From assembly GCF_964204645.1 (NCBI RefSeq), contig NC_134030.1:15252110-15316109 (forward strand): 64,000 nt of DNA, given 5' to 3'. Source of the stretch: Tubulanus polymorphus (taxonomy: Eukaryota; Animalia; Nemertea). Made by a program: the position numbers and the translations under genes. A model generated the notes under the pieces. The model saw nothing but the letters and a program-made list of their open reading frames with translations. It did not search any database and had not been told where the DNA came from. Position 1 is the stretch's first letter. Each line of letters starts with the position of its first letter. Shown here piece after piece: positions 1-53,002 of this stretch.

Positions 1-379
1 AGTGAAATCTAAATATTGTGTGAATTAATTTTAAATCAGAATACTTCAAATTTTTATCTAAGTTATTTAAATGATCATTCCAACTTATTCCACATCCTGT
101 TGTTGCACAATAAACAGCAAAATCTAATTGGTTCTGCCAATACTTCATATTAGATTTTACTTTATATTTATGATATTCATCTCGAGTAAAAGTAACTTCA
201 TATGTATTAAATATATTTTCCATTTTAGAAATAAAAAACTGTGATTCATTAACATAAATTTCTAAATTAGTTAATGAATTTAAAACTATATTTTTATATG
301 TAATATTTTTCTTAAAATCTATTGCTGGAATATTATATTTAATTGATTTATTATATTGGAAAGCTTTTGGAAACCCCAT
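1..379 (-). CDS. Polinton-like virus hypothetical protein, 3'-truncated by the window edge (not in the ORF track)
   Basis: ATG at 379 preceded by the same TAATTTTTT..TAAATG motif as its neighbours. Reads MGFPKAFQY...YWQNQLDFAVYCATTGCGISWNDHL...IFRFH and is open to position 2. Confidence 0.8.
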   Translation of the reverse strand, partial: MGFPKAFQYNKSIKYNIPAIDFKKNITYKNIVLNSLTNLEIYVNESQFFISKMENIFNTYEVTFTRDEYHKYKVKSNMKYWQNQLDFAVYCATTGCGISWNDHLNNLDKNLKYSDLKLIHTIFRFH

Positions 380-395
380 TTATATAACTAAAAAA

Positions 396-830
396 TTAAT
401 AATTAACTAATTCTTTTAATAATTTATCTTGTTCTTCAACTGTTATATGACCATTTAAACTTATTATATAATCTAGTGTGTTCTTTAATTTATTAATTTC
501 TTTTATATTAGTTTTAATTTTTTCTTTATTACTTTTTATATTTAATTTTGAACTTATACCAGTTAAAACACTTGAACTTAATCCTAACACACCAATTGAT
601 ATAGCTAAAGGTGTTAATGGACTGAATATTGCTAGAAATGTTATTACAGAACTAATTGTAACCGAACCACTTATAATCAAATAATATATAATTTTACTTT
701 TTAGATATTTTTTCTTTTTTATCTTTAAGTCACTTTCAAATTCTAATATTTGTTTTTCTAAATATGTTTTTAATTTAGTTTTATTTATATCATGAGGAAT
801 AATATCAATACTATCAACTTTATCTTCCAT
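396..830 (-). CDS. Viral hypothetical membrane protein (two hydrophobic helices flanked by coiled coils)
   Basis: 144-aa ORF. Hydrophobic stretch IIYYLIISGSVTISSVITFLAIFSPLTPLAISIGVLGLSSSVLTGIS; TAAATG start motif. Confidence 0.8.
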   Translation of the reverse strand: MEDKVDSIDIIPHDINKTKLKTYLEKQILEFESDLKIKKKKYLKSKIIYYLIISGSVTISSVITFLAIFSPLTPLAISIGVLGLSSSVLTGISSKLNIKSNKEKIKTNIKEINKLKNTLDYIISLNGHITVEEQDKLLKELVNY

Positions 831-849
831 TTATTTAGAATAAAAATTA

Positions 850-1272
850 CTAATTAGTAAACTTATAAGCAACAAATATAACAATAACTGTTCCACCTAA
901 AATCCATATTATTTCATATTTCTGTTGTTCTTTACTTGGGGTATAATAATCTGATAATTTAGGTTTGTATAGATGTAATTTTTCTTTATTTGTTACTGCG
1001 TTATATAAACTCATTGCATCATCAACTGATTGAAAATCTCTGTGTGAAATCTTCTGATCATATAATTCTTTATTGATGTAATCCATATAGTTTTGTCTCT
1101 TTTCTCTATATTCTTCTGCATCTTTATTGTATTTCTCTAATGCTAAGTTATGTCTTTTTTGTTCTGTTAATGATCCATTTTTATCAATATGTTTAAATAA
1201 ATAACCACCACCAGTAAATGCTAAAGCGTTAACAATTGCTGATCCTATAATAGTTATAATTGCAGAAGCCAT
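850..1272 (-). CDS. Viral hypothetical protein: N-terminal amphipathic/hydrophobic helix, EQKRHN coiled coil, C-terminal TM (putative virion/membrane-active protein)
   Basis: 140-aa ORF MASAIITIIGSAIVNALAFTGGGYLF...EQKRHNLALE...IIWILGGTVIVIFVAYKF. Resembles small structural proteins of animal polinton-like viruses (from recognition, not a search). Confidence 0.8.
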   Translation of the reverse strand: MASAIITIIGSAIVNALAFTGGGYLFKHIDKNGSLTEQKRHNLALEKYNKDAEEYREKRQNYMDYINKELYDQKISHRDFQSVDDAMSLYNAVTNKEKLHLYKPKLSDYYTPSKEQQKYEIIWILGGTVIVIFVAYKFTN

Positions 1273-1296
1273 TTATTTAACAAAAAAATTATGTAT

Positions 1297-1518
1297 TTAT
1301 ATGGGAGGAATATATTTTTGTTTTTCCAAATAATCAATAGTTAAATTAGATAAAGTAACTGCTAATGTTAACTTTAAAATATCATTTATATCAAATCTAT
1401 CAACATTAACACTTCCCATTTTGAATACTTTTTTTAATACCATTGAATAACCAACAGTTCCAACTGATAGTAAGGCACCATTATATAATCCAGTTATTAT
1501 CCACTTATTATCACTCAT
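1297..1518 (-). CDS. Small viral hydrophobic protein
   Basis: 73-aa ORF with two hydrophobic/amphipathic segments; TAAATG start motif; tightly packed between neighbours. Confidence 0.78.
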   Translation of the reverse strand: MSDNKWIITGLYNGALLSVGTVGYSMVLKKVFKMGSVNVDRFDINDILKLTLAVTLSNLTIDYLEKQKYIPPI

Positions 1519-1521
1519 TTA

Positions 1522-1878
1522 TTAATCAAAAAAATTACTATCTTCAAAATATTTAGTTAACTTATTTATGATCAATTCAACATTTATTTTATTACTACTT
1601 TTATGATTATCATATATTTTGGTTAATATGTTTTTGATATCTTCAATGATAAAATCTTCATCTAATTCATAAAATCTTAAAGATTCTCTAATTAAATTAG
1701 TAATCTTTTCTACATTTAAAGTTTCTTTATCTATCGTTGTTTCATACTCAAATGTTGTTTCATTAGAAAATGTAATATTTTTGATATGTGTTATTACATC
1801 ATTAATGTTAAATTTCATTTCTTTCTCACGTTTAAAATCAAATCCAAAACATATACTCGGTCCAACAGTTATATTCAT
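1522..1878 (-). CDS. Viral hypothetical protein
   Basis: 118-aa ORF, TAAATG start motif, tightly packed. Confidence 0.72.
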   Translation of the reverse strand: MNITVGPSICFGFDFKREKEMKFNINDVITHIKNITFSNETTFEYETTIDKETLNVEKITNLIRESLRFYELDEDFIIEDIKNILTKIYDNHKSSNKINVELIINKLTKYFEDSNFFD

Positions 1879-1894
1879 TTATATATCAAAAAAA

Positions 1895-2650
1895 TTACTC
1901 TTTACATCTTATAACTAATTCATAAATTACAGGAAAGTTATTTAAATCAATTAAGTATCCATTATGATTTCTTATTTCTAATTTAAAATTATTAAATTTA
2001 GGAATGCATGGTTTAAAATCACATTCTGTTAAATTATAATTTATTTGAGTTCCAAATTGTTTAACATTTTTTAGCGGTAAAATATTTAGTATACTAGAAC
2101 TACAAATTGTTTCTTTAGTTGCTTCGAAAGTTTTTGTAGGCTCGATTAAATTGCAATAAATATAAAAGTGTGTAAAAGGTATTATATTTGAGCTACCTTC
2201 TGCGTTTCCAGTAACTGTAAGTGGTTTAATTCCTAACATTTTAGCCAGTGGTTTGTTTACCATAAATTTATGTTGTTCATTAGATATCTTTATTCTAATT
2301 TTATTAGTACTATCAATTTTATTAAATTTAATTTCAAATACAGAAGTGCCCCCGATTTTCAACCGAGCTCTTCTATTAATTTCCTGCGCTAATGATTCTA
2401 AATTATATAATCCTGGTTTTAAAAATATATGAAACCATTTATCTTTATTTCTCATATAAATCATAAACCCTCTATGTTCAAAAGTTTTATCCGATACATT
2501 GTAAAAAGAATTACATAAACTTATATTAACTAATTTTAAATCTACACAATTCTTAAATTCTCTATCTAATTGTACTAATAAATTATGTGATTTATAATTT
2601 GTAAGTCTTCTAGAATCAACAAATATTCTGTATTCTTTTAATTCTACCAT
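1895..2650 (-). CDS. Minor capsid protein (penton, single jelly-roll) of a polinton-like virus
   Basis: 251 aa with penton-typical pattern IFVDSR...NSFYNV...PGLYN...LAKMLG...YIYCNLI...LEIRNHNGYLIDLNNFPVIYELVI. Confidence 0.8.
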   Translation of the reverse strand: MVELKEYRIFVDSRRLTNYKSHNLLVQLDREFKNCVDLKLVNISLCNSFYNVSDKTFEHRGFMIYMRNKDKWFHIFLKPGLYNLESLAQEINRRARLKIGGTSVFEIKFNKIDSTNKIRIKISNEQHKFMVNKPLAKMLGIKPLTVTGNAEGSSNIIPFTHFYIYCNLIEPTKTFEATKETICSSSILNILPLKNVKQFGTQINYNLTECDFKPCIPKFNNFKLEIRNHNGYLIDLNNFPVIYELVIRCKE

Positions 2651-2667
2651 TTATTTTACATATTTTC

Positions 2668-3009
2668 TTATTCGAAATCTATTTCATGGTGCCCTTTTTC
2701 ATTCTTACCTTTGTATACGAAATAGAAATCACCAGAACATAATTCTTCTAAATCTTCACTTGATAATCTATGAAATCTATCTGGTAAATAAGTTCTGAAT
2801 TTATATGTATTTCCTTTTAATCCTTCATATTCTAAGTGTATAACTAATTTATCTCCATATTTATTAGTAATTGTTTCAATGTTAGTAATTGAATATTTCT
2901 TGTGAATTGTTAACTCAGTTAGTTTTTTAAATTTATAATCTACAGATTTTACATTTGTGGTATCTTTAATTCTATCTAAGAATTCATTGTGTACTTGTTT
3001 ACTCTCCAT
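2668..3009 (-). CDS. Small beta-rich viral protein next to the polymerase, possibly an OB-fold ssDNA-binding protein
   Basis: 113 aa, FKKLTEL..KKYSI...TNKYGDKLVIHL...TYLPDRF. The SSB function is an inference from the pattern and position. Confidence 0.6.
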   Translation of the reverse strand: MESKQVHNEFLDRIKDTTNVKSVDYKFKKLTELTIHKKYSITNIETITNKYGDKLVIHLEYEGLKGNTYKFRTYLPDRFHRLSSEDLEELCSGDFYFVYKGKNEKGHHEIDFE

Positions 3010-3037
3010 TTATTATACAAATTTTTATTGAAATTGA

Positions 3038-6000
3038 TTAACACGCTAGAATCCTTTTCATAATCTCATTTTCTTTTGTTTCTTCTCTTTTGAATTTTAT
3101 ATATTCATCTAAATTGCAACCATAGGCGACTGTGTGGATTCCATCATCTAAAATATATCTTTTATCATCAAATGGGTTTAGACTTATCTTCTCTATCTCT
3201 TCAATATACATTTCATGATCTTCAGATCTTAAACATTTCATTTTATGTTTTCTAACTTCTTCATTAAATATACAATTGATGTAATCTTTGAAATGAATAT
3301 TCTTTTCAACAACGCTTTTGGTAATTCCTTTTAACTTTTTAGCTTCATGTTCTTTAGTTTTATATGAATACATTTTAGATGTAATACCAATGAACTCTAT
3401 CATTTCTTCACCACCTAATTCATCCTTAAACTTCCCTGGAACTTTTTTATTATCATTGCTAAACAATTCATGATTTTTTGGATAATTACTAAAATCAAAA
3501 TGATGTTTTAATGTTTTTAAATCATCTGTTATGTTATCAGTTTTTATCTTTAATATGTAAGAATCTGTATCAAAATATAAGATTTCTATATGTTTTTCTC
3601 CAAAATGGGGTTGTAATATGTTATGATAAAATTGATACATTAATAACTTTGAAATTTCTAGAACTGATGCACCAACATAAATAGGTTTATTGAACTTCAT
3701 TGAAGTTCTTCTCATCTTAACTGCTGCTAAATTTTCATCAAATATTCTGTTACCTATAAACTTAGGATATGATTGTAAATGCCTAATTCTTTTACCATTA
3801 CTGACTAACTCGATATCATTTCTATTTCTAATATTTTCACAAGTCTTACCATAGAATGCATTATTCATTAGTTTGAAGAAATCTTTTTCAAAATCAGTTT
3901 TAGATTTAGTTCTCTGTGTAGTATTAAAATCTATATATTTTTCTAACCATTTAGATTGACTAAATGAAATATATCTATATACTTTTTTTAGGATGATTCC
4001 TTGATTCAAATAAAACTTCAACATTCTATAATGCACAACGTAATTATATTTATCTTCTTGAGTTACCATTAACTTTTCAGTATGAATATGATTATCGGGT
4101 TTAATTCTTTTTTGATAATTTGATAATTCTTCATGTTTAACAGTTTTATGTTCGGGACAATATGCTAGATTTCTAGATTTGAATTTAATGTTTTCGGGGT
4201 ATTTTAAATCTACAACAAAGAAGTAACCAGTATCTGAATCATCTGCAATATCTAGAATTCTTTTCTTCCAATCAAATTTATCAATTTGTAAAACTTCAGT
4301 TATTTCAAACATCCCATAAGGTTGTGGTTCCATCATTGCCCAACCATAAAGATTATTTGCATCTATGTATAATAATTTATATCCAAGATTATCATTTACA
4401 TTGAAATATCTATCACCCAATACACCTGAAACACCTCCTCTTATAGATTTTTCAAATAATAGTAATTGATCTATATTTGTTAACAAATCCATTTTTATAT
4501 CTGTAAATTTTAATCCACAATCCCATGTTAATCCTGGTGATGAATAACAATGACAAGGATCAATATTAAAATATTTTAGGTTTACATCTCTAAACCTTTC
4601 GAATATATCGGTTAATAATAATACATCTGATTTTAAATATAAATCTACTAATTGACCATGATTTTCTATTTTGAAATGATTCCAAATATTCAATGTTCTA
4701 TTATAAACTTCATCTTTAACATATTCATTTTTTAATTCATCATAAAATTGTTCTTTTAATAATTCAGTTATGTTAAAATCATTATGATTTTTATAGAAAG
4801 AATATGGAATCGCTCCTTTATATCTCATTAATTGAAAATCATCATAATTTGGGTAATATTCTTTTAATATCTTTAATTCATCATCAACTAATGATTTTGA
4901 TAAGTTATCTAATGAACTATTTAAAAATCTATATGAATCTATAAATCTTAGGCAACCAAATTGGAATGATATATAATTCTCAGATGTTTTAGCTAACATT
5001 CTAAATTTATAAGTTGGTATTTTATCTTTTGATCTATTTGAATTTAATATTTCTATTTCATTATTGATTTCTTCTATTTTATAACATAACTGTTTGATAA
5101 ATAAATGTGCATCATATCCTGATAGATTATGAAATATAACTGGTACAAAGTTAATTTTCTTAGCTTGTAAGTTACAATTCTCATGTGCAGCGCCTCTAAA
5201 CTTTCCGTTCAAATGATCATGGTCTCTTACTTTTTTATCATTATAATTAAATATCTTTTCACAATAATAACATTTATCTGCAAACGCAAATTCTTCTTTA
5301 TCTTCTTCTGTCATAATTATTTCTATATTTGTATTCAATAATTTACTAAATCTTATTTCATATTCAATTAATAAGTCACAAAAATGATTGATAACATTTT
5401 CATTTCTATAATTATAATATTCACTTTCAATTAGTTCTGGATAATTAGATTTAATATATAACCCGAAAGCTGCAGCTGATTGATGAATCTTTTTAATTGT
5501 TTTTGTTTTTGGTGGGTCTTCTGAATAATCACTTTCATTAGAATTTAATTTCTTTCTTTTATAATATATATCTTTTCTATCTTTATCTGTTAATTCTTTA
5601 TTTAATGATTCAAAATCTCCATATATTACAAATGGTACTTTATTTTTGTAATCATATTTTTTGAATTCTAATATTTTATCCTTTTCATTTGGTAAAACTA
5701 ATTTACAATAATCATGATTATCACATAGTTGTTTATGATTTAATAATGTACTTTCATTACTAAATCTATGTAAACATTTTCTACATAGATATATTTTATT
5801 ATGGTGATCACTTTCTGTTCTAAAAAATAAATCTATTTGTTTAATCCACATATAATGATTCTCATAATATAGTATATCTATAACATCGTTTGAATCATAA
5901 TCTTTTGATAGGTATAAAGGTTCTAATGTATAATGTTTAATATTATTTCCTTTTGTATTTGGTAATTTAATTAAATCAAATACATTTATTTTAAGATTAT

Positions 6001-7069
6001 TATCTCTTTCTATTTTGGGGATGTTTTTAATTCTAACAGGATACTTATCTATCTTATAATTATTTTCAAATGGTTTATAATGAGTTAATCTAAAACTATG
6101 TGTAATATCTTCTGTTGGATGTAAACAACTTATTATAGCCCATAGAAAACATTTATCATCTTCATTTTGTATATTTATTACAGCATTAGTTTTAAATGGT
6201 AGTTTAATATAACTTGTTCCATTTATACTATCATCTTTATAATATGATAAATTATTTTCATCAATTGGTTTTGATTTAGTTAACTTATTATATTTTGTGT
6301 TATAAACATGTAAAGTTATAAATATTATCTCATCAAATATTAAACCAGATCCTTCAAAATATTTTTCTTCTATTTTAGTTTTTATTTCATTATAACATTT
6401 TTCTAATTTATCATCTATATGTTGTTTAGATATAATATGTTGTGAATGAGAATTTATATTATATATTGGTTTATCTTCAGATTTTATAAACTTTACTTTA
6501 ACTGATATACTAATTTTAGGATATTCAACATCTGTAATTATTTTTATTATTTCTTTCATATTTTCTAAATGTTTTTTATTTTCTTCTAATGTTTTACCTT
6601 TATGAAATTTAAACTCGATAGCTGCTGGACCAATATCACTTTTAAATGCTTCGGTTATCTCTATATCTTTTTTATTATCTAATGAATTAATATAATTTCT
6701 TACATCTTCCATGTATGGTCTTTTATTGTTTAATTTATTTTTTATTCTTTTAATTGTCTTCTGTTTCTTATCGTTATCATTATCAAAATAATCTTCACCT
6801 ATAATATCATTATTCTTATTTCTAATATGACTTATAGATTTTAAATGTTCTTTATAATATCTTTTATCACTGAATGATTGATTACATGTATCACATTTAT
6901 ATGTTTCTTTTTCATTCTTTAATTCTTCTAATTTAGTTTCTAATATATCATCTTCATACTCTAGTTTCAATTTATTCTCTAAATGTGTTATAGTTTTATT
7001 GTGTCTTGCTTTTTGGGATTTATCTATATCGATATTACATGTTGGGCAGTAGTATTTATTTGCTTCCAT
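3038..7069 (-). CDS. polB: Protein-primed family B DNA polymerase (pPolB) with N-terminal zinc fingers, OTU-like Cys/His domain and endonuclease VII-like insertion
   Basis: 1343 aa, uninterrupted. ExoI YGDFES, ExoII FHNLSGYD, ExoIII YLKSDV, PolA YIDANNLYGWAM, PolB KLMNNAFYGK, PolC YFDTDS. Also CYYC...DHDHLNGKFRGAAHENCN (Endo VII-like) and DKCFLWA...NHYMWI (vOTU-like). Confidence 0.97.
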   Translation of the reverse strand: MEANKYYCPTCNIDIDKSQKARHNKTITHLENKLKLEYEDDILETKLEELKNEKETYKCDTCNQSFSDKRYYKEHLKSISHIRNKNNDIIGEDYFDNDNDKKQKTIKRIKNKLNNKRPYMEDVRNYINSLDNKKDIEITEAFKSDIGPAAIEFKFHKGKTLEENKKHLENMKEIIKIITDVEYPKISISVKVKFIKSEDKPIYNINSHSQHIISKQHIDDKLEKCYNEIKTKIEEKYFEGSGLIFDEIIFITLHVYNTKYNKLTKSKPIDENNLSYYKDDSINGTSYIKLPFKTNAVINIQNEDDKCFLWAIISCLHPTEDITHSFRLTHYKPFENNYKIDKYPVRIKNIPKIERDNNLKINVFDLIKLPNTKGNNIKHYTLEPLYLSKDYDSNDVIDILYYENHYMWIKQIDLFFRTESDHHNKIYLCRKCLHRFSNESTLLNHKQLCDNHDYCKLVLPNEKDKILEFKKYDYKNKVPFVIYGDFESLNKELTDKDRKDIYYKRKKLNSNESDYSEDPPKTKTIKKIHQSAAAFGLYIKSNYPELIESEYYNYRNENVINHFCDLLIEYEIRFSKLLNTNIEIIMTEEDKEEFAFADKCYYCEKIFNYNDKKVRDHDHLNGKFRGAAHENCNLQAKKINFVPVIFHNLSGYDAHLFIKQLCYKIEEINNEIEILNSNRSKDKIPTYKFRMLAKTSENYISFQFGCLRFIDSYRFLNSSLDNLSKSLVDDELKILKEYYPNYDDFQLMRYKGAIPYSFYKNHNDFNITELLKEQFYDELKNEYVKDEVYNRTLNIWNHFKIENHGQLVDLYLKSDVLLLTDIFERFRDVNLKYFNIDPCHCYSSPGLTWDCGLKFTDIKMDLLTNIDQLLLFEKSIRGGVSGVLGDRYFNVNDNLGYKLLYIDANNLYGWAMMEPQPYGMFEITEVLQIDKFDWKKRILDIADDSDTGYFFVVDLKYPENIKFKSRNLAYCPEHKTVKHEELSNYQKRIKPDNHIHTEKLMVTQEDKYNYVVHYRMLKFYLNQGIILKKVYRYISFSQSKWLEKYIDFNTTQRTKSKTDFEKDFFKLMNNAFYGKTCENIRNRNDIELVSNGKRIRHLQSYPKFIGNRIFDENLAAVKMRRTSMKFNKPIYVGASVLEISKLLMYQFYHNILQPHFGEKHIEILYFDTDSYILKIKTDNITDDLKTLKHHFDFSNYPKNHELFSNDNKKVPGKFKDELGGEEMIEFIGITSKMYSYKTKEHEAKKLKGITKSVVEKNIHFKDYINCIFNEEVRKHKMKCLRSEDHEMYIEEIEKISLNPFDDKRYILDDGIHTVAYGCNLDEYIKFKREETKENEIMKRILAC

Positions 7070-7149
7070 TTTAATACTATATTTTTTATTAAAATTGATT
7101 TTAGAAGTTCAATGATTTAAATGTTATTCATTTATGTGAATATTTTAAG

Positions 7150-7337
7150 AGTAATAGGGATAATAGGCTTTCGTATCAAAGGTTGAAGGGGCGAGTGAGT
7201 AAAAAAATGAAAATAATAATAATTTACAGTTGAATTAGGAGTGTGCGCGACTAATTCAACTGTAAATTATTATTTTCATTTTTTTTACGAGCTCGACCCT
7301 TCGACCTTTGGTATGAAAGCCTATTATCCCTATTACT
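7150..7337. repeat. 188-bp near-perfect palindrome/hairpin at the virus-host junction
   Basis: AGTAATAGGGATAATAGGCTTTC...GTTGAATTAG, 12-nt loop (7239-7250), then CTAATTCAAC...GAAAGCCTATTATCCCTATTACT. Confidence 0.92.
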
Positions 7338-7620
7338 TGTAATGTACAGTTTGCTTAGGAAGTTTGTCTGTATAAAACTTAGAATTGAAGCCAACCCACA
7401 TAGAAATATTTTCAAGGTTGATAGTGTGACATCCTAACCAGACGATATCTACTAAGTCCCCTTTAGTGTCAATAGAAGATGACTGTATGAGATCAGTTTT
7501 TGGATATGTGAATACGGACATTCTTGGTTTCTTTCTGTATGGCTCCAAAATGTTCTCATCAAATTCTAATTTTCTCTTCTTCATTGGTTTTTCGCTGGTT
7601 TTATTACTGACAAGCAACAT
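7338..7620 (-). pseudogene. Fragment of a large invertebrate DNA-transposon-like ORF, cut off by the hairpin
   Basis: MWVGFNS...PKQTVHY resembles a motif of widespread uncharacterised invertebrate transposase-like ORFs; the frame ends at the hairpin. Confidence 0.35.
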
Positions 7621-8809
7621 ATTCCATTTCAGGATGCTTTGAGCTAAATTGGAAGACCTAATTTGGGCATGGACTCTAAAGTCTAATTATACTTATTAAT
7701 TAGCAAAACTGATCAGCTTCTTAATTAGGCCTAGCCTTATTCCAAATTTACATTTCTTAAGTGATTATTTCATAATAACAGCATTAAAATCTTTAATTTA
7801 CAATTAAAATTATGCATGGACTCAACAGTCTAGACTGAACCTGTTTTTGAGGGACTTTTAGCCTAGCCCCCCCTGTTTTATGCACCACCTGTATAACTTA
7901 AGAACCATAGTTTTGAGATCAGCAATGCACCCCCTAGCATTCCCACACTCCAAACATTTTGGACTCAACAGTTTGATTAACTTTCATCCAGCTCCCAGAC
8001 TAATTGTATATGTGCGCGCTTTTATGTTACCAGCTTTAATACACTACGAGAATGCATGGCAGCTTATTGGAACACTGTCAGTTTCCTGGAAAACATAAAT
8101 TAGGCCACATGTCAAGGCATGTTTTCACACGATGCACACTTGAATTCAAACATACGTAGCTCATACGTCGGCAGTGGGTCGGTCAGCCGTTTTTATCAAA
8201 AATAAAATTCATTTCATTGAATCCCAGAAACAAAGTTATCACTCGGTACCTTTGAAAATCGGGTCAGTCGGGTTACGGCAAACAGACCATTAATATGGGA
8301 TGGCCTAAAATTCATATGATGTCACATATCAGAGGGTGGCTGAATATTGGGTCTTGGAAACCTCTTCCAATGTTGGCCGCGGAAGTTAAAATACCGGTAC
8401 AGAAGAAATCGGCTATTAGATCGTTTTAAATCCTGGAATTTACGACTACAATATTCAGACCTCGACCTATACTTGTAGTTTGCTAATTAATATTTTCAGG
8501 TGACAGTTACAATTTATTACAAATTCTATCAAACAGAAAACACAGCGCTCATCTTCTGCTACGATTATTCAGCCTATTTTCATGTCAAACGTGCACGCGT
8601 TACAGCATCACCTTTAGTAGTGTACTGTACGAGCTGTAGCACTCCGCGCGCACGTGGAGGCCTCGTGTAAGTAAATGTTCGCTTACATTTCAATCTCAAT
8701 CAATACAATCACCGTGTATTAAAATGAAACAATACCTATGGCGGATGTGAAATAATTACATCCTCACCAGCAATGAGCATTTGAAATTCACACGTATACG
8801 GCACCTAGT

Positions 8810-21289: not shown

Positions 21290-24200
21290 ATGGCTACCTC
21301 ACTTGGTCCTTTCTGTGATTCTTTAGGAATCGATAGCGAAAACCTTCTTGATAATCTAAAATGTTTGAATCCTGCTGACAAAGAATGGGAATGTATATGA
21401 GATTTTCAATTACGCTACAAAAGCCACAATCTCATGGATTGAAATAGCTAAGACATTAGGCTATGTATACCCACACATATCCGGTATACATTCAGGTAGA
21501 ATAATAAGATCTTCATTCAGTCAAGTTCATTGCAAAAGGAGGGCTATATCCAAAAGCAAGTCTTCAGAATACCTGAATCAAACTTACATCATGCCTAATG
21601 TCGATCCAATTACTACACCAGAACAATCTTCAGAATCCAACCCTTTGGCTACAAAGCGACAAAGGGTTTCATTTGAACAAGATATAGTGAACGAAGTCTC
21701 CATAACTATGGCTCGTGAAATAGCTGAAGCTAAAGATAGATTAAGATCCTTAGAAGAACAGAATAGCAATCTAAAAAGTAGAAATGATTCACTTGAAATG
21801 GAGAATTTGCAATTGAAGCAAAAGCTGAAAAAATTGCAATACGAGCCGCACTAATTTCCTCATGAAAAGGAAAGAAGCTTCAGCAAAATTGTGGAAATCA
21901 AGATATTTGGATTTAAAATCAACAAGTGAGGCTCAGAATGTTGCCAGGCTTCAGTCCAAACTGCAGAAAGCCAAACAAACTATCAGGCAACTTCAGAAGA
22001 ATAAATCAAAAACAAAATCCCGTTCACTATTATCCAGATCTAGCTTGAAAGAAAAACATTCCCAGAATTTAAATGTATCTCTTTTGGAACATCAAGAAAA
22101 TCTCTGTGGAAAGGTAAAAAGGATTTCATCTCTTAATTCAGAAGTTAGTCATCTACAGGATAAATGTTTGACTCTAGAAAATAGGGAGAATCAGGTATTA
22201 GGCGCTAAAATGGACGGAAGAACGTATTCGCATAAAATTCGTGAAGCTAGCTATCATCTGCAGAACTTAGGAATTTCTCAAAAAAATGTTTCAACTGCCA
22301 TTAAATTAGTAAATTCTGCTCTCACCGACACTGAACTATCTGGAAATATCCCTTCGTATACAACCCAGAATCGATTCACTAAAGAAATGAAAGCTGCCTC
22401 TAGGTCTTGGGTTCAAGAAACCATTGAGAAATAAGATAATCTCACAGTCAAATACGATGGAACTACAAAAAAACTAGGACATCTTGTAGAAGTTGAGGTA
22501 GCCACCAAACAAGGCGACTTACTAATGGGACTAACCATTCAAGCCGGTGGAACTGCTGATGAATATACTAAAACCATCATTAAAGCATGCAATAGAATCG
22601 ATTCTTCGAATTCTCAGAATTCAGTAGATTCCAACTCTACTTTGAATAAGATCAAAAACACCATGTCTGATCGTGTCACTACGAATACAATGATTGAAAA
22701 ACAATTAGAAAACTTGATAGGCCATAACTTGAATAACTTTAAATGTGCCATGCACCCACTAGAGGCAATGGCAGGCGACTGTGAGAAAGTGATCAAGATA
22801 TATGAGGCATCAGTTGACATAGCCAGCAAAAAGATTGGCGTCAATTATCCCTTTCTACATCGCGGTGAGAGCAACACAGTAGCTACAGTCAGAACAACCA
22901 GTAAATTATTTCATGACACAAAGTACAACTGTAGCACTGAATTGAGCAGTTTTCTTCATTCTAAAGGAATCGTACCTGAAACAAAAAGAAGAAAATCAGT
23001 ACTTAATAATCGTTTTGTCTGCAATAGGTTTCATGTAGTTTTCCTCTCATGCGGTTCATTATACCATTATAAATCAGGAATTATCGAATTTTTCAATGAC
23101 ACTTTCAGTCCTCGAAATGTTGTTCAAACAAGTGTACTGAACGCATTACAGTTGAAGTGGATCCGTGTTTACGTAGTCAGGGAATCATAGGCAAAGTTTT
23201 AACCGGACCTTGGATGCGACTCTTAGGCCAAACGCGGAATATTCTTGAAATGAATGAGCACTTTGAAATAGCTCATTCAAGACTTGGTGCTTGGGCAAAG
23301 GATGCTAGTAGTCTTTTGACACCTGATGCTCCTTGTGCTTTTGATCTTGTTGATATCCAGAGAGATGCTGTATTTCGAAGTTTAACCGCACCAAGTCATT
23401 CAGATGGAACCACTTTAAGTTTATTGAAAGACCTGTGCCAAGCATGTTTGAATGTGATGGACAGGCAATTGAAATCTCAACTTCCTGGTGGAATTTTTGA
23501 CAATCCATCTGCTCAGCTATTAGAAGAAGCCGCATCCTGCTCAAATACAAACATAAGCGGAGAACGAAATTTTGCGTCAGCAGATCAGGAAATTGCGCGT
23601 GCCAGAAATGCGAAAATAGAAGAATGGCTATATAGAAGCTACGGTTATGTTTCGAAAGAATAAAACAGGCGAATGGTTACGATCGAAGTCAGATGTTGAT
23701 AAAGAAAGTGTAATTAGTCTAGCTAGAAGATCAGTTAAGAATATAAACGAGCTTGATCGATTAGATGAAGAGGAACATTCCGAGAAAATTCAAAATAAAC
23801 TACTTGAGGCGCGAAAAAAGAAATTAGAAAAGGAAGATCGCGACAGAGCTAAATTTGAACAATGGCTCGAATGTATGTTTCAATCTGGGGGTCTCTGGAC
23901 TGGACCCGATATGATGGAAAGTTATCTGGCTGGACATTCTAAAACAAAATCCTTAGAAGTAATTAAATCTCCGATTAATATTCGAACTAGAATCTTTCAA
24001 TGTCAGCCTGAGTCGAAGATAACATTTAGCAAGTCCACTTTAGAAGATTTGGAATCGATCATGAATGAGCTGTTTGAAATTGCCATTCCATTAGAAATGA
24101 TAGACTTATTTGAACTGATAATTACACCGCATAGTTTAGTTAGTAGTAATTTTTCGCAGAGATGGCTAGATGAAGGGACAACCAAATGGTATCATGGATA

Positions 24201-24336
24201 TTTTGAGTCAGTAGAAGTAACTAAGCGCAGAATTCTAGATTTTAAAGTTGTATTTGATAATGGTGAATTTTGTTATATGTCGGCTGATGAAATTATTGTT
24301 GATATTACGCGTAATGACGTTGAGCTATTCCCTTGA
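21290..24336 (+). pseudogene. Decayed DDE transposase of the CxxH clan (hAT/P/MULE-related, hAT-like E motif)
   Basis: Consecutive broken ORFs 21591-21854, 21862-22434, 22525-23190, 23157-23663 and 23647-24336. Motifs VKYDGTT (D), MSDRVTTN (D), CAMH, TNISGERNFA (E). Confidence 0.8.
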
Positions 24337-30662: not shown

Positions 30663-32244
30663 TCAGTTTTTTTCCCCAAAGAAATCGGTTATTTCCATTT
30701 GCTTTTTCGGAAGCTTTGCCAGGTATTGATGGACCCGCTCAGTGAATGCGAGAACATCGTCAGTAAACTCCTGTGAACTCTGCGTTAACGCGTAACTACT
30801 AAGTGTTGCGAGAGATTGACGAATGGCAGCAGCTGATGGAGGGGTAGGATTAAATTCTTCTTCTTCCTCCTCAGTGTCGGAATTTTCATGGTAATCCATA
30901 TTGACGTCGGTTTCGTTGAACATGAGTCACAATGTCCGAATCGCTCATTTCCATGTTGTCTGAAACTTCCAAATTGTCATCAACCGGTGGTAAATCATTA
31001 CCATAAATCGTACCAAGACGATCCCAGATGTTACGGAATTCACGCTGCTCAGTAGGCTCTTGTGAGCTTGTGGAAACGACTTCGACGATGTCGTCTGTAT
31101 CAAGATCAATACCTGGTGCAACAAACCCAGTTGATCTAAAACAATTTTCTATAGCTTTTTTAGAAACTTTCATCCAGGCTGATTTTATCGCAACAATCGC
31201 ATCTAAAATGTTCCACTTTAAGTCTTGATTTGCCTCAGCAGCCGTAAGACGACGAGTAGCTAATATTTTCCTGTAGTAAAACTTTAAGTTTTTAATGACG
31301 CCGCCATCCATAGGTTGCGTAATCGAGGTAGTATTAGGTGGTAAAAACACAAGTTCTATGTTCTTTAGTTCAATGTTCGGGTGAGCGGTACAATTGTCTA
31401 CTATCATGCATATTTTTCGTCGCTGAAGTAACATTTTACGATCCAATTTCTGTAACCATTCGATAAAAATAATTCCCGTCATCCACGCTTTCTTGTTGGA
31501 CAGGTACTCAACTGGAATTCTTACAACATTTTTGAACGCCCTTGGTCTCTTACTCTTACCAATGGCCAGCAGCGGCAGTTTATCGTCACCATTCATGTTT
31601 GCAGCAACTAAAACCGTGATGCGGGTTTTTGCCTGTTTAGACCCATGATCTTTAGAACCCTTGAAGCCAAGCGACTTCTCTGGCAGTAACTGCCAGAACA
31701 AGCCGGTCTCATCGGCATTATAGATATCACTGGGCCTGTATTGTTCAAGAATTTCTTTCAATCGCCCATCTTTCCATTCATTAACTATAACCTGGTCAAC
31801 ACCTCCTGCTTCTCCAGCTTTTAGAATTTTCACGATTCCATATCTGTGTCTAAATCGACTGATCCAGCTAGCAGATATGTTGGATTCATGTCCATTTTCA
31901 CGGCTAAAATAATTTGCCTTGGTCAGCAACATACCGCCATCAATCCTGAGATCGGGTTTCTGGCTTAATTGGCAGAACCAGATGATCAATGCCGCGTCAA
32001 CATCTGATAAGTCAAGGGTGCGTGCTCTCTTGATTGAACCTTTCCTTGCATCCTGCGGTTTTTCAACTAGACTCTTTATTTTTTCATTATTTTTGATATA
32101 ATCGTTCAGTGTTTGTGGTTTTAAATCGAATTTCAGACCAATGTCCTTCTTCTTCCAGTTTTGATGGTTTTCGTAAAATTTCATAATCTCGTATTTTTCC
32201 TGATAAATACGGTCCGTACGTTTTCTTTTTTCCATCGTGAACAA
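30663..32244 (-). CDS. pogo/Tigger transposase (CENP-B-type HTH + DD29D), one frameshift near the acidic C-terminus
   Basis: ORF 30886-32244 has YNADETGLFW, IVDNCTAH and QPMDGGVI. The C-terminal tail (EEEEEE...KQMEITDFF) is in 30663-30923. Confidence 0.92.
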
Positions 32245-32660
32245 ATGAATGAACGAATATACAGTAGCCGAGTGCAGTAGTATAGCCTATATAGCGACTC
32301 TTTGAAGCAACAGTAGACTCATATAAATAGCGACAGTGTTGGCCTGGCATTTTAATCAATACACAGTGTCTGGGATTTTGAGTTATCGTTCTAACTACGG
32401 CGGCACGCTATGTTTTAACGGTGATTTGTAATTAATAATAAAATGTTTTTTACGATACGGATTATCCGACCGTTAATGTACATGGTTTGCACAATTGGAC
32501 CACATATATACTACGGATTAAGTGAAAATACGGATTATTTTGAACGGATTAATTAAAAATTTTATTAAGGGTTTTAACAGTAAATAAACGGGACTGAGTA
32601 AAATATACGGAATATCTAAGAATACGGATAAATCGGCTCCGGATTAAGCGGATTTGACTG

Positions 32661-41606: not shown

Positions 41607-42074
41607 GACCACATAGAAAGATTCTTTCTAGTTTATGTTGATTTGACGAGAAAATTCGATGTTTATTTTTGACAGGTAAGAAATGAAAGTGTGACGAATA
41701 AAATTATATGAATGATGTTTGATGGGTAAATCCAATGTTTCATTTGATATTTCATCGTAAGTCTATGGATGTGCTACTTTTTTGGTCTACCTTTGTGCTT
41801 CGTCACTGTAGGTGAATGTGATTGGCTGTTTTTGGAATTCCCGTGCTACTAAAATATTCATGGGAAATTCCACGCATACGCGAGTGCTAATTATTTAAGA
41901 GACAGGCTGCGCCATAACCGCTTTCTCATACAGCACTGGCATTGAATGTTGAAATCAGATTGTTGACCTTTTCAAACCACTTCTCTAGTGGGCGTGGTGT
42001 GCCTGAACTGCTAGTAGAAAACTGGCTCATTCGATTTAATTGTGGAAAACTGAAAAGTTTAACTTCATTTCCAG

Positions 42075-42278
42075 TACTTCAGGGATGGCAACCAGTACGA
42101 ACATTGACCAATCAGGAGGTTCGCAACAAACGCTGCTTGATATATGACCAGGAAAAGTTGCGTCAAGAATCATTGATTCGAAGAATAGAGAAAATACAAG
42201 TAATTCGTAAAGGACCTACTGAAGATTTAACCCTCATCATGAATAAAAATTTGTCAACCCCTTATAATTGCGCCATGC
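42075..42278 (+). CDS. MRPL39: Mitochondrial ribosomal protein L39, internal coding exon
   Basis: ccag|...|gtaag. Encodes ..RNKRCLIYDQEKLRQESLIRRIEKIQV..LIMNKNLSTPYNCAM(H), matching MRPL39 (VMNKNISTPYSCAMH). Confidence 0.92.
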
Positions 42279-42429
42279 GTAAGTAAATTTAAGCTTGGGC
42301 GGGTTGTGCAGTCTCACTTCAGACTTCAGTCGAAATTTCAAGACTGATTTTTTAGATATATCACCTTATGTTCTTAGGTTGGTTCATTGTCATAACTGAT
42401 GTATAAATCATTATCATAAGCACATTAAT

Positions 42430-42996: not shown

Positions 42997-45440
42997 TGTT
43001 ACGACCAATTGAGAATCCTCTTGCAAATTCCTTGAAGTCAAGCATAATAGAAGAACGACTTCCACATTTCATGTAACAGCAATTTATTCTATGTAATACC
43101 GGTGTTGCCGTAACTCTCAAACTGCCTGCATGTTCACAAATCCAGATATTTATTTGAAGACTGTGAACACGCAGTACAGTCCCAGTGATTCTTAGCTCAC
43201 AATATATATATAGAAGTTATGCAGACAGTTTAACACAGAAATATGAATATGCAAGATAGAATACCATGGAGATTATATACATTTCACATACATAGACATA
43301 ACACACGCCCCCCTCCCCTCCCCCTTAAGAGGGTCAGTCAAATTTATTACAGCACAAACTACAGAATGAACTAAAAAATGTTCAGAATTTCTTCTTCAAA
43401 ATTCCATCTTCACAGTAATAGGCCTAAATGCAATTAGATTCTGGAAAGAGTGTCGGTTATCACATTATTCTTGCCACGAATATGATGAATCTCAGGATTA
43501 TATTCTTGTAACATAAGACTCCATTTCATTAATCTTTATTACGGTTACACATTGATTTCAGAAATGTTAACGGTATGTGGTCCGTAAACACGAGTAGTGG
43601 AAACATTCTCATTGATGTATACCCATTAAAATGTTCAAAAGCGAGTACAAGTGACAAATATCTTTCTCGATTGTTGAGTAATTCAATTGTGCACCAGCAA
43701 ACTTCTTAGAATAATAACATACCGGATGGTCGATATCATTTTCATCAGTTTGAACTAATACCGCACCCGTGCCAATGTCGGAAGCATCAACAATCAATTT
43801 AAATTGCTTGTCGAAATCTGATGCTAACAAGACAGGACTACAAGTTAACAAACTCTTCACAGATTCAAAAGCAATCTGACACTCCTTTGACCAGATCAAT
43901 TTAACGTCTTTCTTCAGTAAATTCGTTAATGGTTGAGCTACTGATGAAAAGTTTCTGCAAGACTTTCTGTAATATCCAGCCATTCCAAGAAATCTCATGA
44001 TACCCTTCTTATCTACAGGAACCGGATAATCAATAATAGTTTGAATTTTAGCTGAAATTGGTTTGACATGTCCTTCACCAACTGCGTGACCCAAGTATCT
44101 AACAGTCGCTTTTCCGAATTCACTCTTAGATAGATTAATGGTGAGATTTGCAGTGGTCAGATTTTGAATCAAACCACGCACTTGTTCAGGATTTTCATTC
44201 CAATCAGCAGAAAAGACAACGATGTCGTCCAAATAGACAATCACACACACTAACCCTTTAACCCTTTCAGTGCTGGCTTATTAATACCCTATAGTGCTGA
44301 AGATAATTTGAAAATTCTGAAAAATTCCACCCTAGTGTGTTGAATAACGGGAATAGCACTATAGTGTTTCTACACCCTGGCACGGTATATCGTTAGTTAC
44401 TAATATTTCACTATATTAGACAGGTGCTGCCATCTTTCAAGAGAGATAATTAGTAATTACTAATTAAATCAATACACCGCAGTGCGGTGTTCTAGCAAAA
44501 TCCATCACTGATTCATACACCGCACTGCTTTGTTCATTAATCTTTGGAAAGAAGCGGCTGAGTTTTTCATACCAAAAGGCATGACCTTATGCTGAGACAA
44601 CCCATCAGGAGTTACGAAAGAAGGTATCTCTTTCGCACGGTCAGTCAGTGGAACTTGCCAGTACCCATTATTTAGATCAAACTTTGATACAAATTTGGCT
44701 TTGCCGATTTTATCAATAAGGTCGTCAATTTTAGGCATCAGTTAATAATCAGTTTTAGTTAGTGAATTAGCTTTCCTATAATCGGTGACAAAACGCTCTT
44801 TCCGCCAGGTTTAGGCACATGGATACATGGTGAGCTCCACTGACTGTCGCTAGGCTCAGCTACTCCTAATTTCAACATTTCGATCACTGATGTCTGCCTT
44901 TTCAGGATTAAGACGGTAATTATGTTGTTTAACAGGGCGAGAATTACCAACATAAACATCATGTTTTAAAAGATAGTCAAACCAGGTTTTTGTGTGAATA
45001 GATGTTTATATTCAATTAGCAAATCAGTTAATTGAACCTTTTTGTCAGATTCTAAACGCTCTGAATGACAATTAATCTTTTCGAGAAAATTATCATTTTT
45101 TACAGTTTTTTCAACATTGTTACTGCCCAAACTACTACGGTCCAAATAGTCATCGAATTCATAACAATCATCAACATTTTCGACTAAACTATTTACAGTT
45201 TGAACACTAGAATACGATTCTGAGACTAACGGTCGGTTTAAAGACATGCAAGATTCCACTTTCTCTTTATACGGTTTAAGCATATTTATATGACACAATT
45301 GCAATTCTTTTCGGCGATCAGGAGTTTGTATAAGATAGTCAACATCATTTAATCGCTTTTGAACTATGTATGGACCGTGGAATTTGCAGTCAATGAATTG
45401 GACTGAATAGGGAAGAGTACTAAAACTTTATCATCACAGG
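42997..45440 (-). mobile_element. Ty3/gypsy LTR retrotransposon 3' half, Gmr1-like order (INT-RT-RNaseH), with PPT and 3' LTR
   Basis: GPY..CHINMLKPY integrase tail (~44966-45440) lies upstream of RT (SQWSSP, FDLNNGYWQ, MPFGMKN, YLDD) and RNase H (DASDIG). PPT at ~43306-43326; LTR TGTTA...TAACA at 43303-42997. Degenerate. Confidence 0.88.
44258..44500. mobile_element. Short piggyBac-like (TTAACCCTTT) insertion interrupting the gypsy RT
   Basis: Non-coding insert between MPFG and YLDD beginning TTAACCCTTTCAGTGCTG; right TIR not evident. Confidence 0.5.
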
Positions 45441-51213: not shown

Positions 51214-51332
51214 GAGATATAGACTAAAAACAGGGGTATATATACAGAGGAGGACAGGTTAATTGAGTAAATTGGTGAGTGAGTGAATAATTAGTGTTTG
51301 GCAAGGCATGAAGTAATATACTTAGAAAGAAG

Positions 51333-53002
51333 CCATCAAAACCATCCGCATTTCCAAGGCTGATAAAGGCGGCAAAATTGTTATTCAAGATTTGATCAAT
51401 TACAATTCTAAAATGTGTGCTATTCTCGGTGATTCCAATTTCTACAAATCCATCAAAAACAACCCTTTGAAAAAGATGCAATCAGCTTTTAATTTAGGTT
51501 TAAAAAACATCTCTAAGAAATTTCCTGACCATTCGGACTTCATCTCCAAATTTAACTCTCGGCTTCCAAATCTTCCTTATGCTTATGGTCTTCCCAAAAT
51601 TCATAAACCCAATTCACCTTTAAGACCGATCATTTCTGATATCAATTCTCCATCATATCGGTTCTCCAAATATCTGGCGAAAGTACTCTCCCCGGCTTTG
51701 GGTACTTTTTCTGATTCTCACATTCGACACAATATGGATCTTTTAGACAAACTCAAAAATCTCAAACCTAATGGACAAAAATTTATATCTTTCGACGCTG
51801 TTTCCTTGTTCACTAATATACCATTGGAACCAACTCTCAATTTCTTAAGAAGAAAACTCCCGGACTCCAATCTTGATCTCCCAATTCCTGTAGAATGTTT
51901 ACTTGAACTTTTGGAACTCTGTACTACCAATCTATATTTCCAATTCCAAGACAAATTCTATGAACAAATTTTAGGTTTCGCTATGGGTAACCCATTATCC
52001 CCCATTTTGGCTAATCTTTTCCTTGAACATTTTGAATCCGAAATTCTCCCTAAGTACGCTGGCTCTAAACCTAACTTTTGGATTAGATATGTTGATGACA
52101 TTTTGTGCTTAGTTTCTGATAATTTTGATCTTACCTCTTTTATCGACTTCATCAACTCCCATTATCCATCTTTGAAATTCACTTTTGAATGGGAACAAAA
52201 TGACCAAATTCCATTTTTAGATCTTCTAATTCACAATAAATTTTCTCATTTGATTTTCTCAGTCTACCGTAAACCTATCAATGCCGAGGCATACCTTCAC
52301 TTCTTTTCGTTTTCTGCCAAATCAATCAAAATTGGTCTCGCTCAAGGCCTCTTTCTCCGTGCACTATGGATCTGCGATGAAACCTTCCTTTCGGCTGAAT
52401 TTGACCATATATCCAACTCTCTTAGGAAATTGGCTTACCCTGATCACATGTTGAAAATCGCTATTTCTAAGGCTAAACGTACTTTCTTCATTTCTAAACC
52501 TCCAGAAAATAAAAAACACATTTCAGAGTTCATTGTAGTTCCGTATGTACCTGTTTTGGAAAAGTTTCATCACTCTCTCCCTTTATTGGATAAACAAATC
52601 ATTTTCACGTATGAAAACAAAATTAGTAAGACTTTGGTTAAAAACAATCAATCTAAACCTTTGGACTGCAGAGTTTACAAAATTCCTTGTTTTGGATGTG
52701 ATAAAATTTACTTTGGAGAAACTGGTCGTGATTTAAAAACTCGAATTTCGGAACACAAAAAGGATATAATAAATCAAAAACCGGCTAGTGGCGTAGCCAA
52801 TCACATTTGGAACGCTGGTCATCGTTTTAATTTTGATAAAGTCGAAATTATTTATACTTCCAGCAATTACACTAAACGCCACATAGTTGAGTCTGCCCTA
52901 ATTACTCGTCACTCAGATATTAGTACCAATTTAAATAATGGCTTATCTCCGCATAATTCCCTTCTTTCTAAGTATATTACTTCATGCCTTGCCAAACACT
53001 AA
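51333..53002 (+). CDS. Penelope reverse transcriptase + GIY-YIG endonuclease (open frame, 5'-truncated)
   Basis: KADKGG, YGLPKIHK, SFDAVSLFTNIP, GFAMGNPLSP, RYVDD, FLDL, VYKIPC..C..YFGETGR..RISEH; no stops over >536 aa. Confidence 0.95.

What the first reader, a model, noticed from the sequence alone, without database searches (positions are those of the whole stretch)
377..1897. Five viral genes share an exactly spaced 22-bp start motif that looks like a poxvirus late promoter
Seen: five consecutive genes begin with TAATTTTT-N8-TAAATG, with exactly 16 nt from the first TAA to TAAATG in all five. At 1516-1537 the T-run lies inside the last codons of the upstream ORF (AAT TTT TTT GAT), and at 1270-1291 the leading TAA is not a stop codon. 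The motif is therefore not just a by-product of gene packing. Established: vaccinia late promoters are a T-rich run, a ~6-bp spacer and a TAAAT(G) initiator that overlaps the start codon. Virophages such as mavirus and Sputnik share late-promoter or polyadenylation signals with their helper giant virus. Inference: this animal-integrated polinton-like virus is transcribed by a cytoplasmic poxvirus-like/NCLDV RNA polymerase. It would then be an endogenous virophage-like hyperparasite, possibly antiviral for the host, implying an unrecognised pox-like helper in this invertebrate.
Basis: partly seen in the sequence, partly recalled or inferred. Interest (0 to 1): 0.9.

Follow-up and report, generated by a model that had tools for sequence, protein, structure and literature searches.

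The report
Poxvirus-type promoters in an animal Polinton
Nearly every gene of this virus-like element, which sits in many copies in an animal genome, starts at a precisely spaced signal matching the poxvirus post-replicative promoter, so it is likely a dormant parasite of a poxvirus, switched on by that virus's own RNA polymerase.

Summary
TAATTTTT-N8-TAAATG occurs five times in the window, all on the minus strand at gene starts (0 of 100 shuffles). The genes belong to a multi-copy Polinton/Maverick ending at 7337 in a 188-nt hairpin. With three metagenomic relatives, 28 of 31 automatically called genes start TAAATG, against 10 of 221 in 21 other Polinton-like loci. T at -10 from TAAAT, the published vaccinia late mark, is present at 29 of 32 such starts. 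A matrix trained on 36 chordopoxvirus loci recognises these upstream regions in exact register (z 8.6 over composition-matched shuffles). Other Polintons (z 0.7) and 73 other giant-virus loci (z -3.5) fail. Kozak, poly(A)-signal and gene-packing explanations fit poorly. Best reading: an integrated satellite transcribed by a poxvirus-family helper (0.55). Not shown: any transcript, a helper virus, or host protection. Entomopoxviruses, asfarviruses and egoviruses were not sampled, and the motif has fixed bases that chordopox promoters lack. Polinton-like viruses associated with entomopoxviruses are published, but a text search of that paper found no promoter analysis. The scan's notes hold no earlier report of this motif or element.

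The parts
377..398 (-). T-run/TAAATG start motif of the gene starting at 379 (442-aa homologue in L121; runs off the window)
828..849 (-). start motif of the 144-aa two-membrane-helix gene (396-830; weak SLATT hit E 0.0037, below cut-off)
1270..1291 (-). start motif of the 140-aa gene (850-1272); first TAA is not a stop
1516..1537 (-). start motif of the 73-aa gene (1297-1518); T-run lies in the last codons of the upstream ORF
1876..1897 (-). start motif of the 118-aa gene (1522-1878)
2648..2669 (-). A-rich variant start (TAAATG, no T at -10) of the minor capsid gene; the L121 orthologue has the same variant
3007..3028 (-). A-rich variant start (TAAATG) of the 113-aa gene (2668-3009); shares a 49-nt similarity with the PolB start (repeat D4)
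7067..7088 (-). A-rich start of PolB, TAAAATG
1895..2650 (-). minor capsid (penton-like) gene, 251 aa
   Evidence: Atlas neighbours 0.97-0.98, incl. a Sputnik V18/19 minor capsid cluster; weak DUF5901
3038..7069 (-). Polinton-type family B DNA polymerase, 1343 aa, with C2H2 finger and endonuclease VII-like segment
7150..7337 (.). terminal imperfect hairpin (about 94-bp arms); element end at 7337 reading 5'-AGT inward
   Evidence: z -19.8; 1440 reads with mixed loose ends behind 7337

Best explanation
The motif is a bipartite start signal (T-run at -13 to -9, then ATAAATG containing the start codon) at the head of nearly every gene of this integrated animal Polinton, and it is likely a poxvirus-type post-replicative promoter read by the RNA polymerase of a co-infecting poxvirus-family helper. 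Shown: motif, spacing, conservation in relatives, match to poxvirus promoters in register, Polinton identity, integration in many copies, and no RNA polymerase among the ORFs annotated. Inferred by analogy with vaccinia: transcription would start inside TAAAT, polymerase slippage would add a 5' poly(A) leader (which would explain the T at -3, a poor Kozak base), and each gene would be its own unit. Inferred by analogy with mavirus/CroV: the element would stay silent in the chromosome, be expressed when the helper infects the cell, and replicate and package at the helper's expense.
For:: 32 of 36 hand-curated starts and 28 of 31 automatically called starts are TAAATG, against 69 of 949 other ATGs in the same DNA and 10 of 221 ORFs in 21 other PolB-related loci. 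T at -10 in 29 of 32 versus 22 of 69 non-start TAAATG (p 2e-8); TTTTT at -13..-9 in 17 of 32 versus 0 of 69. (PMC11980589, passage): vaccinia late promoters have TAAAT(G) over the start codon and a conserved T at the 10th base upstream; in 36 chordopox loci T peaks at -10/-9 (142 of 186 unique starts); the T profiles correlate best at zero shift (r 0.63); a pox-trained matrix separates start from non-start TAAATG in the element family with AUC 0.92; composition-matched shuffles give z 8.6 for the family and 4.2 for the window alone (0 of 2000 each), against 0.7 for other Polintons, -0.5 for L127 and -3.5 for other giant viruses. T at -3 in 28 of 31 versus 36 of 195 in other Polinton-like loci; stop-to-start distance varies from -80 to 325 while the T-run keeps its place; the divergently oriented dNK gene of L121 has the motif with no upstream gene on its strand; across copies, listed variants at 0 of 12 TAAATG sites, 1 of 16 TAATTTTT sites and 5 of 16 spacer sites. 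Precedent: PLVs in entomopoxvirus occlusion bodies (PMC11296320).
Against: No transcript or start site was examined, and no helper virus was found or sought in the host's reads. The motif carries features chordopox promoters lack: A at -1 in 31 of 31 versus 73 of 186, A at -15 in 0.90 versus 0.37, exact TAATTTTT-N8 in 8 of 31 versus 0 of 186. The pox control rests mostly on 8 orthologous genes, and 3 of the 7 with T at -10 are classed intermediate in vaccinia. TAAATG alone is not pox-specific: L214 has it at 9 of 21 starts and L127 at 7 of 7. Without the composition control the matrix also gave AUC 0.75 on other Polintons (n 11 starts). One T of the run (-11, place 1286) varies in about 37% of reads. 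PolB, which should be needed early, has no clear pox early promoter. The four family loci are related, so counts are not fully independent.
Confidence: 0.55

Rival explanations
1. It is a helper-read viral promoter, but the helper is not a poxvirus: another Pokkesviricetes lineage (egovirus, asfarvirus relative), an iridovirus-like virus, or a cytoplasmic linear element with a poxvirus-derived RNA polymerase like yeast pGKL2.
For: Family-specific fixed bases absent from chordopox promoters. L214, whose gene content (XPG, MSV199, Bro-N, HMG box) suggests an invertebrate iridovirus, starts 9 of 21 genes with TAAATG. Yeast VLEs use a TAAAN initiator with poly(A) leaders (PMC6211774, passages).
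Against: L214 has T at -10 in only 1 of 9; the 73 other giant-virus loci show 77 TAAATG in 724 ORFs with 26 T at -10 and score below shuffles. The ASFV late initiator is TATA with variable spacing (PMC7163114). VLE promoters need ATNTGA 20-40 nt upstream, which was not evident in the position counts (not searched for separately).
Confidence: 0.22
2. It is a compact gene-by-gene promoter read in the nucleus by host RNA polymerase II, perhaps with an element-encoded factor, and the likeness to poxvirus promoters is convergence in AT-rich DNA or an inherited relic.
For: The element encodes an rve integrase (L121) and has spread to many chromosomal sites, so it reaches the nucleus. An unchecked scan note (e1-9578067) reads host-type promoters in another Polinton.
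Against: The TATA-like bases (TATAAA in about half) abut the ATG, so a Pol II start 25-30 nt downstream (established knowledge) would fall inside the ORF. T at -3 is disfavoured for host translation unless replaced by a poly(A) leader; other Polinton-like loci have A at -3 in 118 of 195. The register match to pox promoters survives a composition control.
Confidence: 0.15
3. It is a by-product of gene packing or a 3'-end or translation signal: stop codon plus T-rich terminator or AATAAA of the upstream gene, or stop-start coupling on a polycistronic mRNA.
For: The first TAA is the upstream stop in 2 of 5 window cases; AATAAA overlaps the start in about half; most intergenic gaps are 3-28 nt in the window.
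Against: Position -2 is A in 17 and T in 15 of 32, so AATAAA is not kept. The motif is anchored to the ATG, not to the stop (-80 to 325 nt). It is present before the divergent dNK gene with nothing to terminate. The TAA of TAAATG is the upstream stop at only 1 of 29 adjacent pairs (L121 ATPase, gap 0).
Confidence: 0.08

Closest known systems
Vaccinia/chordopoxvirus late and intermediate promoters (PMC11980589, PMC5294985; passages)
   Same: TAAAT initiator fused to the ATG; T peak 9-10 nt upstream; purine at +4 (31 of 31 here, 471 of 539 pox ORFs).
   Different: Here the motif is tighter (A at -1 invariant, T-A at -16/-15) and heads about 90% of genes versus a median 49% in the pox loci; the element shows no RNA polymerase gene.
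Entomopoxvirus-associated PLVs AHEV_PLV1/2, CBEV_PLV1, Ca_PLV1 (PMC11296320; text parts 1, 2, 4 of 8, term search, supplement parts 1, 3, 72)
   Same: Small capsid-encoding Polinton-like elements linked to poxviruses; Ca_PLV1 is integrated and has a PolB with animal homologues.
   Different: Linked by co-occurrence in occlusion bodies, not by promoters ('promoter', 'motif', 'TAAAT' 0 hits). They have a cysteine protease and L2-mu protein and no rve integrase; this family has rve integrase and dNK, and no protease was annotated in the parts seen. Sequence kinship was not tested.
Mavirus/EMALE with CroV, Sputnik with mimivirus, Gezel-14T with PgV (10.1101/2025.10.09.676808 and 10.1101/2022.07.28.501842; passages)
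   Same: Satellite carries its helper's promoter motif; EMALEs are integrated and only those with CroV-like late promoters are reactivated.
   Different: Protist hosts, Imitervirales helpers and different motifs; dependence and host protection were shown by experiment there and not here.
Animal Mavericks/Polintons (Polintoviricetes)
   Same: PolB, rve integrase with chromodomain, A32 ATPase, major and minor capsid, integration, AGT terminus (terminus rule recalled).
   Different: Other sampled Polintons start genes mostly at A(-3) contexts, not TAAATG.
Yeast cytoplasmic virus-like elements pGKL1/2 (PMC6211774; passages)
   Same: Linear elements with a TAAAN initiator giving 5' poly(A) leaders; pGKL1 depending on pGKL2's polymerase is recalled.
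   Different: They use an ATNTGA early-type upstream element and their own RNA polymerase; no capsid, not integrated.

Membership tests
Polinton/Maverick | Family B DNA polymerase of the Polinton type | tested here: met
   1343-aa ORF, 32-38% identical over long stretches to PolBs beside integrase and ATPase in IMG/VR loci; groups with animal-type elements L129/L147 in a quick tree, long branch. Pfam polymerase model itself did not hit.
Polinton/Maverick | rve integrase, A32 ATPase, double jelly-roll major capsid | tested here: met
   In the syntenic relative L121 (79% identity at the 140-aa gene): rve E 1.5e-10, Pox_A32 E 4.6e-11, capsid-like Atlas neighbours. These genes lie beyond the window's left edge.
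Polinton/Maverick | Terminal inverted repeats and 6-bp target duplication | tested here: inconclusive
   One end mapped at 7337; the other end is outside the window.
Poxvirus post-replicative promoter | TAAAT initiator overlapping the start codon | tested here: met
   32 of 36 starts.
Poxvirus post-replicative promoter | T at the 10th base upstream of TAAAT within a T-run | tested here: met
   29 of 32 versus 22 of 69; register test.
Poxvirus post-replicative promoter | Late rather than intermediate class | tested here: inconclusive
   T(-10) in L1R 25/25, L3L 29/29, L5R 24/28, H4L 28/31, but also in J1R 33/33, H3L 33/33, H1L 20/30 (intermediate); L4R 1/34.
Poxvirus post-replicative promoter | Initiation within TAAAT with 5' poly(A) leader by viral RNA polymerase | not testable with these tools
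   No RNA run holding the element was listed.
Virophage-like satellite | No own RNA polymerase | tested here: inconclusive
   None among the 8 window and 12 L121 proteins scanned; neither locus is a full element.
Virophage-like satellite | Replication depends on a helper virus and reduces its yield | not testable with these tools
   Needs infection data.
Entomopoxvirus-associated PLV lineages (Barth 2024) | Their capsid lineages; protease and L2-mu genes; no rve integrase | tested here: not met
   L121 has rve integrase and no protease annotated; capsids were compared only by eye, no tree.

The most novel reading that the evidence does not exclude
A family of animal Polintons are endogenous poxvirus satellites: integrated in tens of copies, silent until a still unknown poxvirus infects the cell and its polymerase reads their pox-type promoters. 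They would act as inherited antiviral defence, possibly also through the promoter-linked two-helix SLATT-like protein. Promoter signatures in Mavericks could then be used to predict helper families and undiscovered poxviruses across animal genomes.
Probability: 0.35. Interest if true: 0.92.

Novelty: new variant of a known kind. Interest (0 to 1): 0.78.

Why it matters
How animal Polintons are expressed, and whether they are autonomous viruses or satellites, is open. A helper-specific promoter on almost every gene gives a sequence-level answer for one family and a cheap test (5' ends, reporter). It would extend the mavirus-type endogenous virophage system from protists to animals, add promoter evidence to the poxvirus-PLV link known only from co-occurrence, and point to a poxvirus in hosts where it has not been looked for.

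Tried and rejected
No own genome held. No RNA holder listed; this says nothing on expression. Searches for family loci in viral contigs (one weak 27-residue hit) and in prokaryote genomes found no usable relative. dNK homologues had no informative names, so a pox origin of dNK is untested. A whole-record motif count was not possible. The PolB tree is only the quick version. By eye, the terminal hairpin has no T-run-then-TAAAT arrangement like the poxvirus resolution sequence (recalled), so that idea was dropped. The hairpin as a separate MITE was rejected: single copy in the window, and mixed loose ends were listed at 7337 but not at 7150 among the rows shown. Yang 2012 was not held. The Barth supplement parts read gave proteins and repeats, not upstream DNA, so their PLV promoters could not be scored; its figures are pictures I could not see. 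Paper searches for prior reports: 6 papers, none on this by title; 1 unrelated; 1, algal PLV; 0; 0; the library lacks most subscription journals.
Full report
Observation. The pattern TAATTTTT-N8-TAAATG occurs 5 times in the 64-kb window, all on the minus strand, at 377-398, 828-849, 1270-1291, 1516-1537 and 1876-1897; 100 shuffles gave none. Markov simulations of the 20-25% GC element alone gave at most 1 in 1500 runs. Each ATG opens one of five consecutive ORFs, and all 5 minus-strand TAATTTTT in 1-7150 are at this spacing. The next two genes (2650, 3009) also start TAAATG and the polymerase (7069) TAAAATG, with an A-run in place of the T-run.

What the element is. Positions 1-7337 are one end of a Polinton/Maverick: a 1343-aa PolB, a minor capsid-like gene and six further ORFs. 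The last 188 nt fold into a hairpin (z -19.8). In raw reads of the same species label (X6, about 12 in 100 of the run read) depth over the element is about 150-1300 per bin against about 12 in the flank bin 7609-7925, and 1440 reads leave the element at 7337 into mixed sequences. It is therefore integrated at many sites, roughly tens of copies (inference). The flank holds an exon similar to animal mL39 (E 8e-9) among repeats; the host group was not determined. L121 is syntenic and adds major capsid, rve integrase, A32 ATPase and a deoxynucleoside kinase. No RNA polymerase was found among 20 proteins scanned, but no full element was seen.

The motif in the family. Of 36 hand-picked starts (8 window, 16 L121, 6 L122, 6 L123; small ORFs nested in longer genes dropped; one probably wrong integrase start and one broken gene kept), 32 are TAAATG, against 69 of 949 other ATGs (p 7e-30). 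Counting from the T of TAAAT, T at -10 is found in 29 of 32 (non-start TAAATG 22 of 69), TTTTT at -13..-9 in 17 of 32 (0 of 69) and A at -1 in 32 of 32. An automatic caller gave 28 of 31, against 10 of 221 in 21 other loci fetched by a PolB motif; a 22nd, L127, had 7 of 7 TAAATG but T at -10 in only 2. Among copies, variants above 5% of reads were listed at 0 of 12 TAAATG sites, 1 of 16 TAATTTTT sites (place 1286, about 37% of reads) and 5 of 16 spacer sites of two motifs; this is modest support.

Comparison with poxviruses. PMC11980589 (passages) states that vaccinia late promoters have TAAAT, typically followed by G over the start codon, and a conserved T at the 10th base upstream; PMC5294985 (passages) gives a T-rich core, 5-7 bp spacer and TAAAT. 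TAAATG is also noted for salmon gill poxvirus and an entomopoxvirus (passages). I fetched 36 chordopoxvirus loci (family confirmed on L151 by Pfam): 264 of 582 ORFs start TAAATG, and T at -10 is in 142 of 186 unique upstream regions versus 131 of 469 non-starts. The T profile of the element family correlates best at zero shift (r 0.63; +1 gives 0.54), and a pox-trained matrix separates its start from non-start TAAATG with AUC 0.92. Because other Polintons also gave AUC 0.75, I added a composition-preserving shuffle: family z 8.6 and window alone z 4.2 (0 of 2000 each), other Polintons z 0.7 (481 of 2000), L127 z -0.5, other giant viruses z -3.5. The top locus, L214 (iridovirus-like gene content by inference), has 9 of 21 TAAATG but T at -10 in 1.

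Results against. The element's motif has fixed bases that chordopox lacks (A at -1 31 of 31 vs 73 of 186; exact TAATTTTT-N8 8 of 31 vs 0 of 186). The pox set is mostly 8 orthologous genes; T at -10 marks four late genes but also J1R, H3L and H1L, which the same paper classes as intermediate, and is absent from L4R (the class of H4L is recalled). So the match is to post-replicative promoters, not strictly late ones. Entomopoxviruses, asfarviruses and egoviruses (search listing only) were not knowingly sampled. No RNA and no helper were examined.

Ordinary explanations. Kozak bias: the family has T at -3 in 28 of 31, other Polinton-like loci A in 118 and T in 36 of 195; a pyrimidine at -3 is disfavoured in animal translation (established knowledge) but harmless if a poly(A) leader replaces it. 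Poly(A) signal: position -2 is A 17, T 15. Packing or termination: stop-to-start distances run from -80 to 325, and the divergent dNK gene has the motif with no upstream gene. Pol II TATA box: too close to the ATG (established knowledge).

Mechanism. Most likely (0.55) each gene is a unit read by a poxvirus-family polymerase after helper DNA replication, starting within TAAAT with a slippage-made poly(A) leader (vaccinia mechanism as summarised in PMC6211774 and PMC7163114, passages). The integrated copies would be silent until infection, as for EMALEs carrying CroV late promoters (10.1101/2025.10.09.676808, passage). These steps are inferred. Rivals: another helper with a pox-like polymerase (0.22), host Pol II or relic (0.15), packing or 3'-end signal (0.08). 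Host protection is a further untested step; the 144-aa gene has only a sub-threshold SLATT hit, and a preprint notes SLATT genes in such viruses (10.64898/2026.10.13.758929, passage).

Novelty. Promoter sharing between satellites and giant viruses is known, and PLVs were found in entomopoxvirus occlusion bodies (PMC11296320; supplement), with 0 hits for promoter, motif or TAAAT in its text. Searches found no report of poxvirus-type promoters in an animal Polinton; two further preprints had 0 hits for 'promoter'. The library omits most subscription journals, and bioRxiv supplements were not seen. The scan's own notes had no finding with all search words and no look-alike stretch. Verdict: real, lineage-specific and probably functional; a new variant of a known kind; interest 0.78.

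Noticed in passing
window 7150-7337: The element's terminus is a 188-nt imperfect hairpin. Each arm holds an A-run-TG-A-run stretch (7201-7220, 7266-7286) resembling the poxvirus early core ('A-rich interrupted by TG'), pointing toward the loop. Reads skipping the hairpin centre exist.
   Followed up: partly
L127 1-9034: An unrelated Polinton (PolB, rve, A32; GC 0.38) starts 7 of 7 genes with TAAATG but lacks T at -10 and has TAAG-containing palindromes upstream; possibly a satellite of a different helper.
   Followed up: partly
window 2648-2669, 3007-3028, 7067-7088: A second, A-rich start class for minor capsid, the 113-aa gene and PolB; the latter two share 49 nt at 71%. 91 reads join 3026 to 7092, either polymerase-less copies or mis-mapping.
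   Followed up: partly
L121 10340-10981: The family carries a deoxynucleoside kinase gene (dNK, E 1.7e-31), with close homologues in three other clusters; origin unresolved.
   Followed up: partly
L214: An iridovirus-like record starts 9 of 21 genes with TAAATG without the upstream T.
   Followed up: partly
window 396-830: Two-helix membrane protein with a weak SLATT hit (E 0.0037, below cut-off), conserved in L121-L123.
   Followed up: no
L121 7141-7588; L123 1458-1900: The integrase region of L121 and the 144-aa homologue of L123 contain in-frame stops, so those copies look decayed while their neighbours' start motifs are intact.
   Followed up: no
window 21369-24336, 30886-32286, 43609-45427, 51326-53002, 41918-42286: Host flank holds several long ORFs that look like transposon remnants by eye (DDE transposases, reverse transcriptases) and an mL39 exon.
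   Followed up: no
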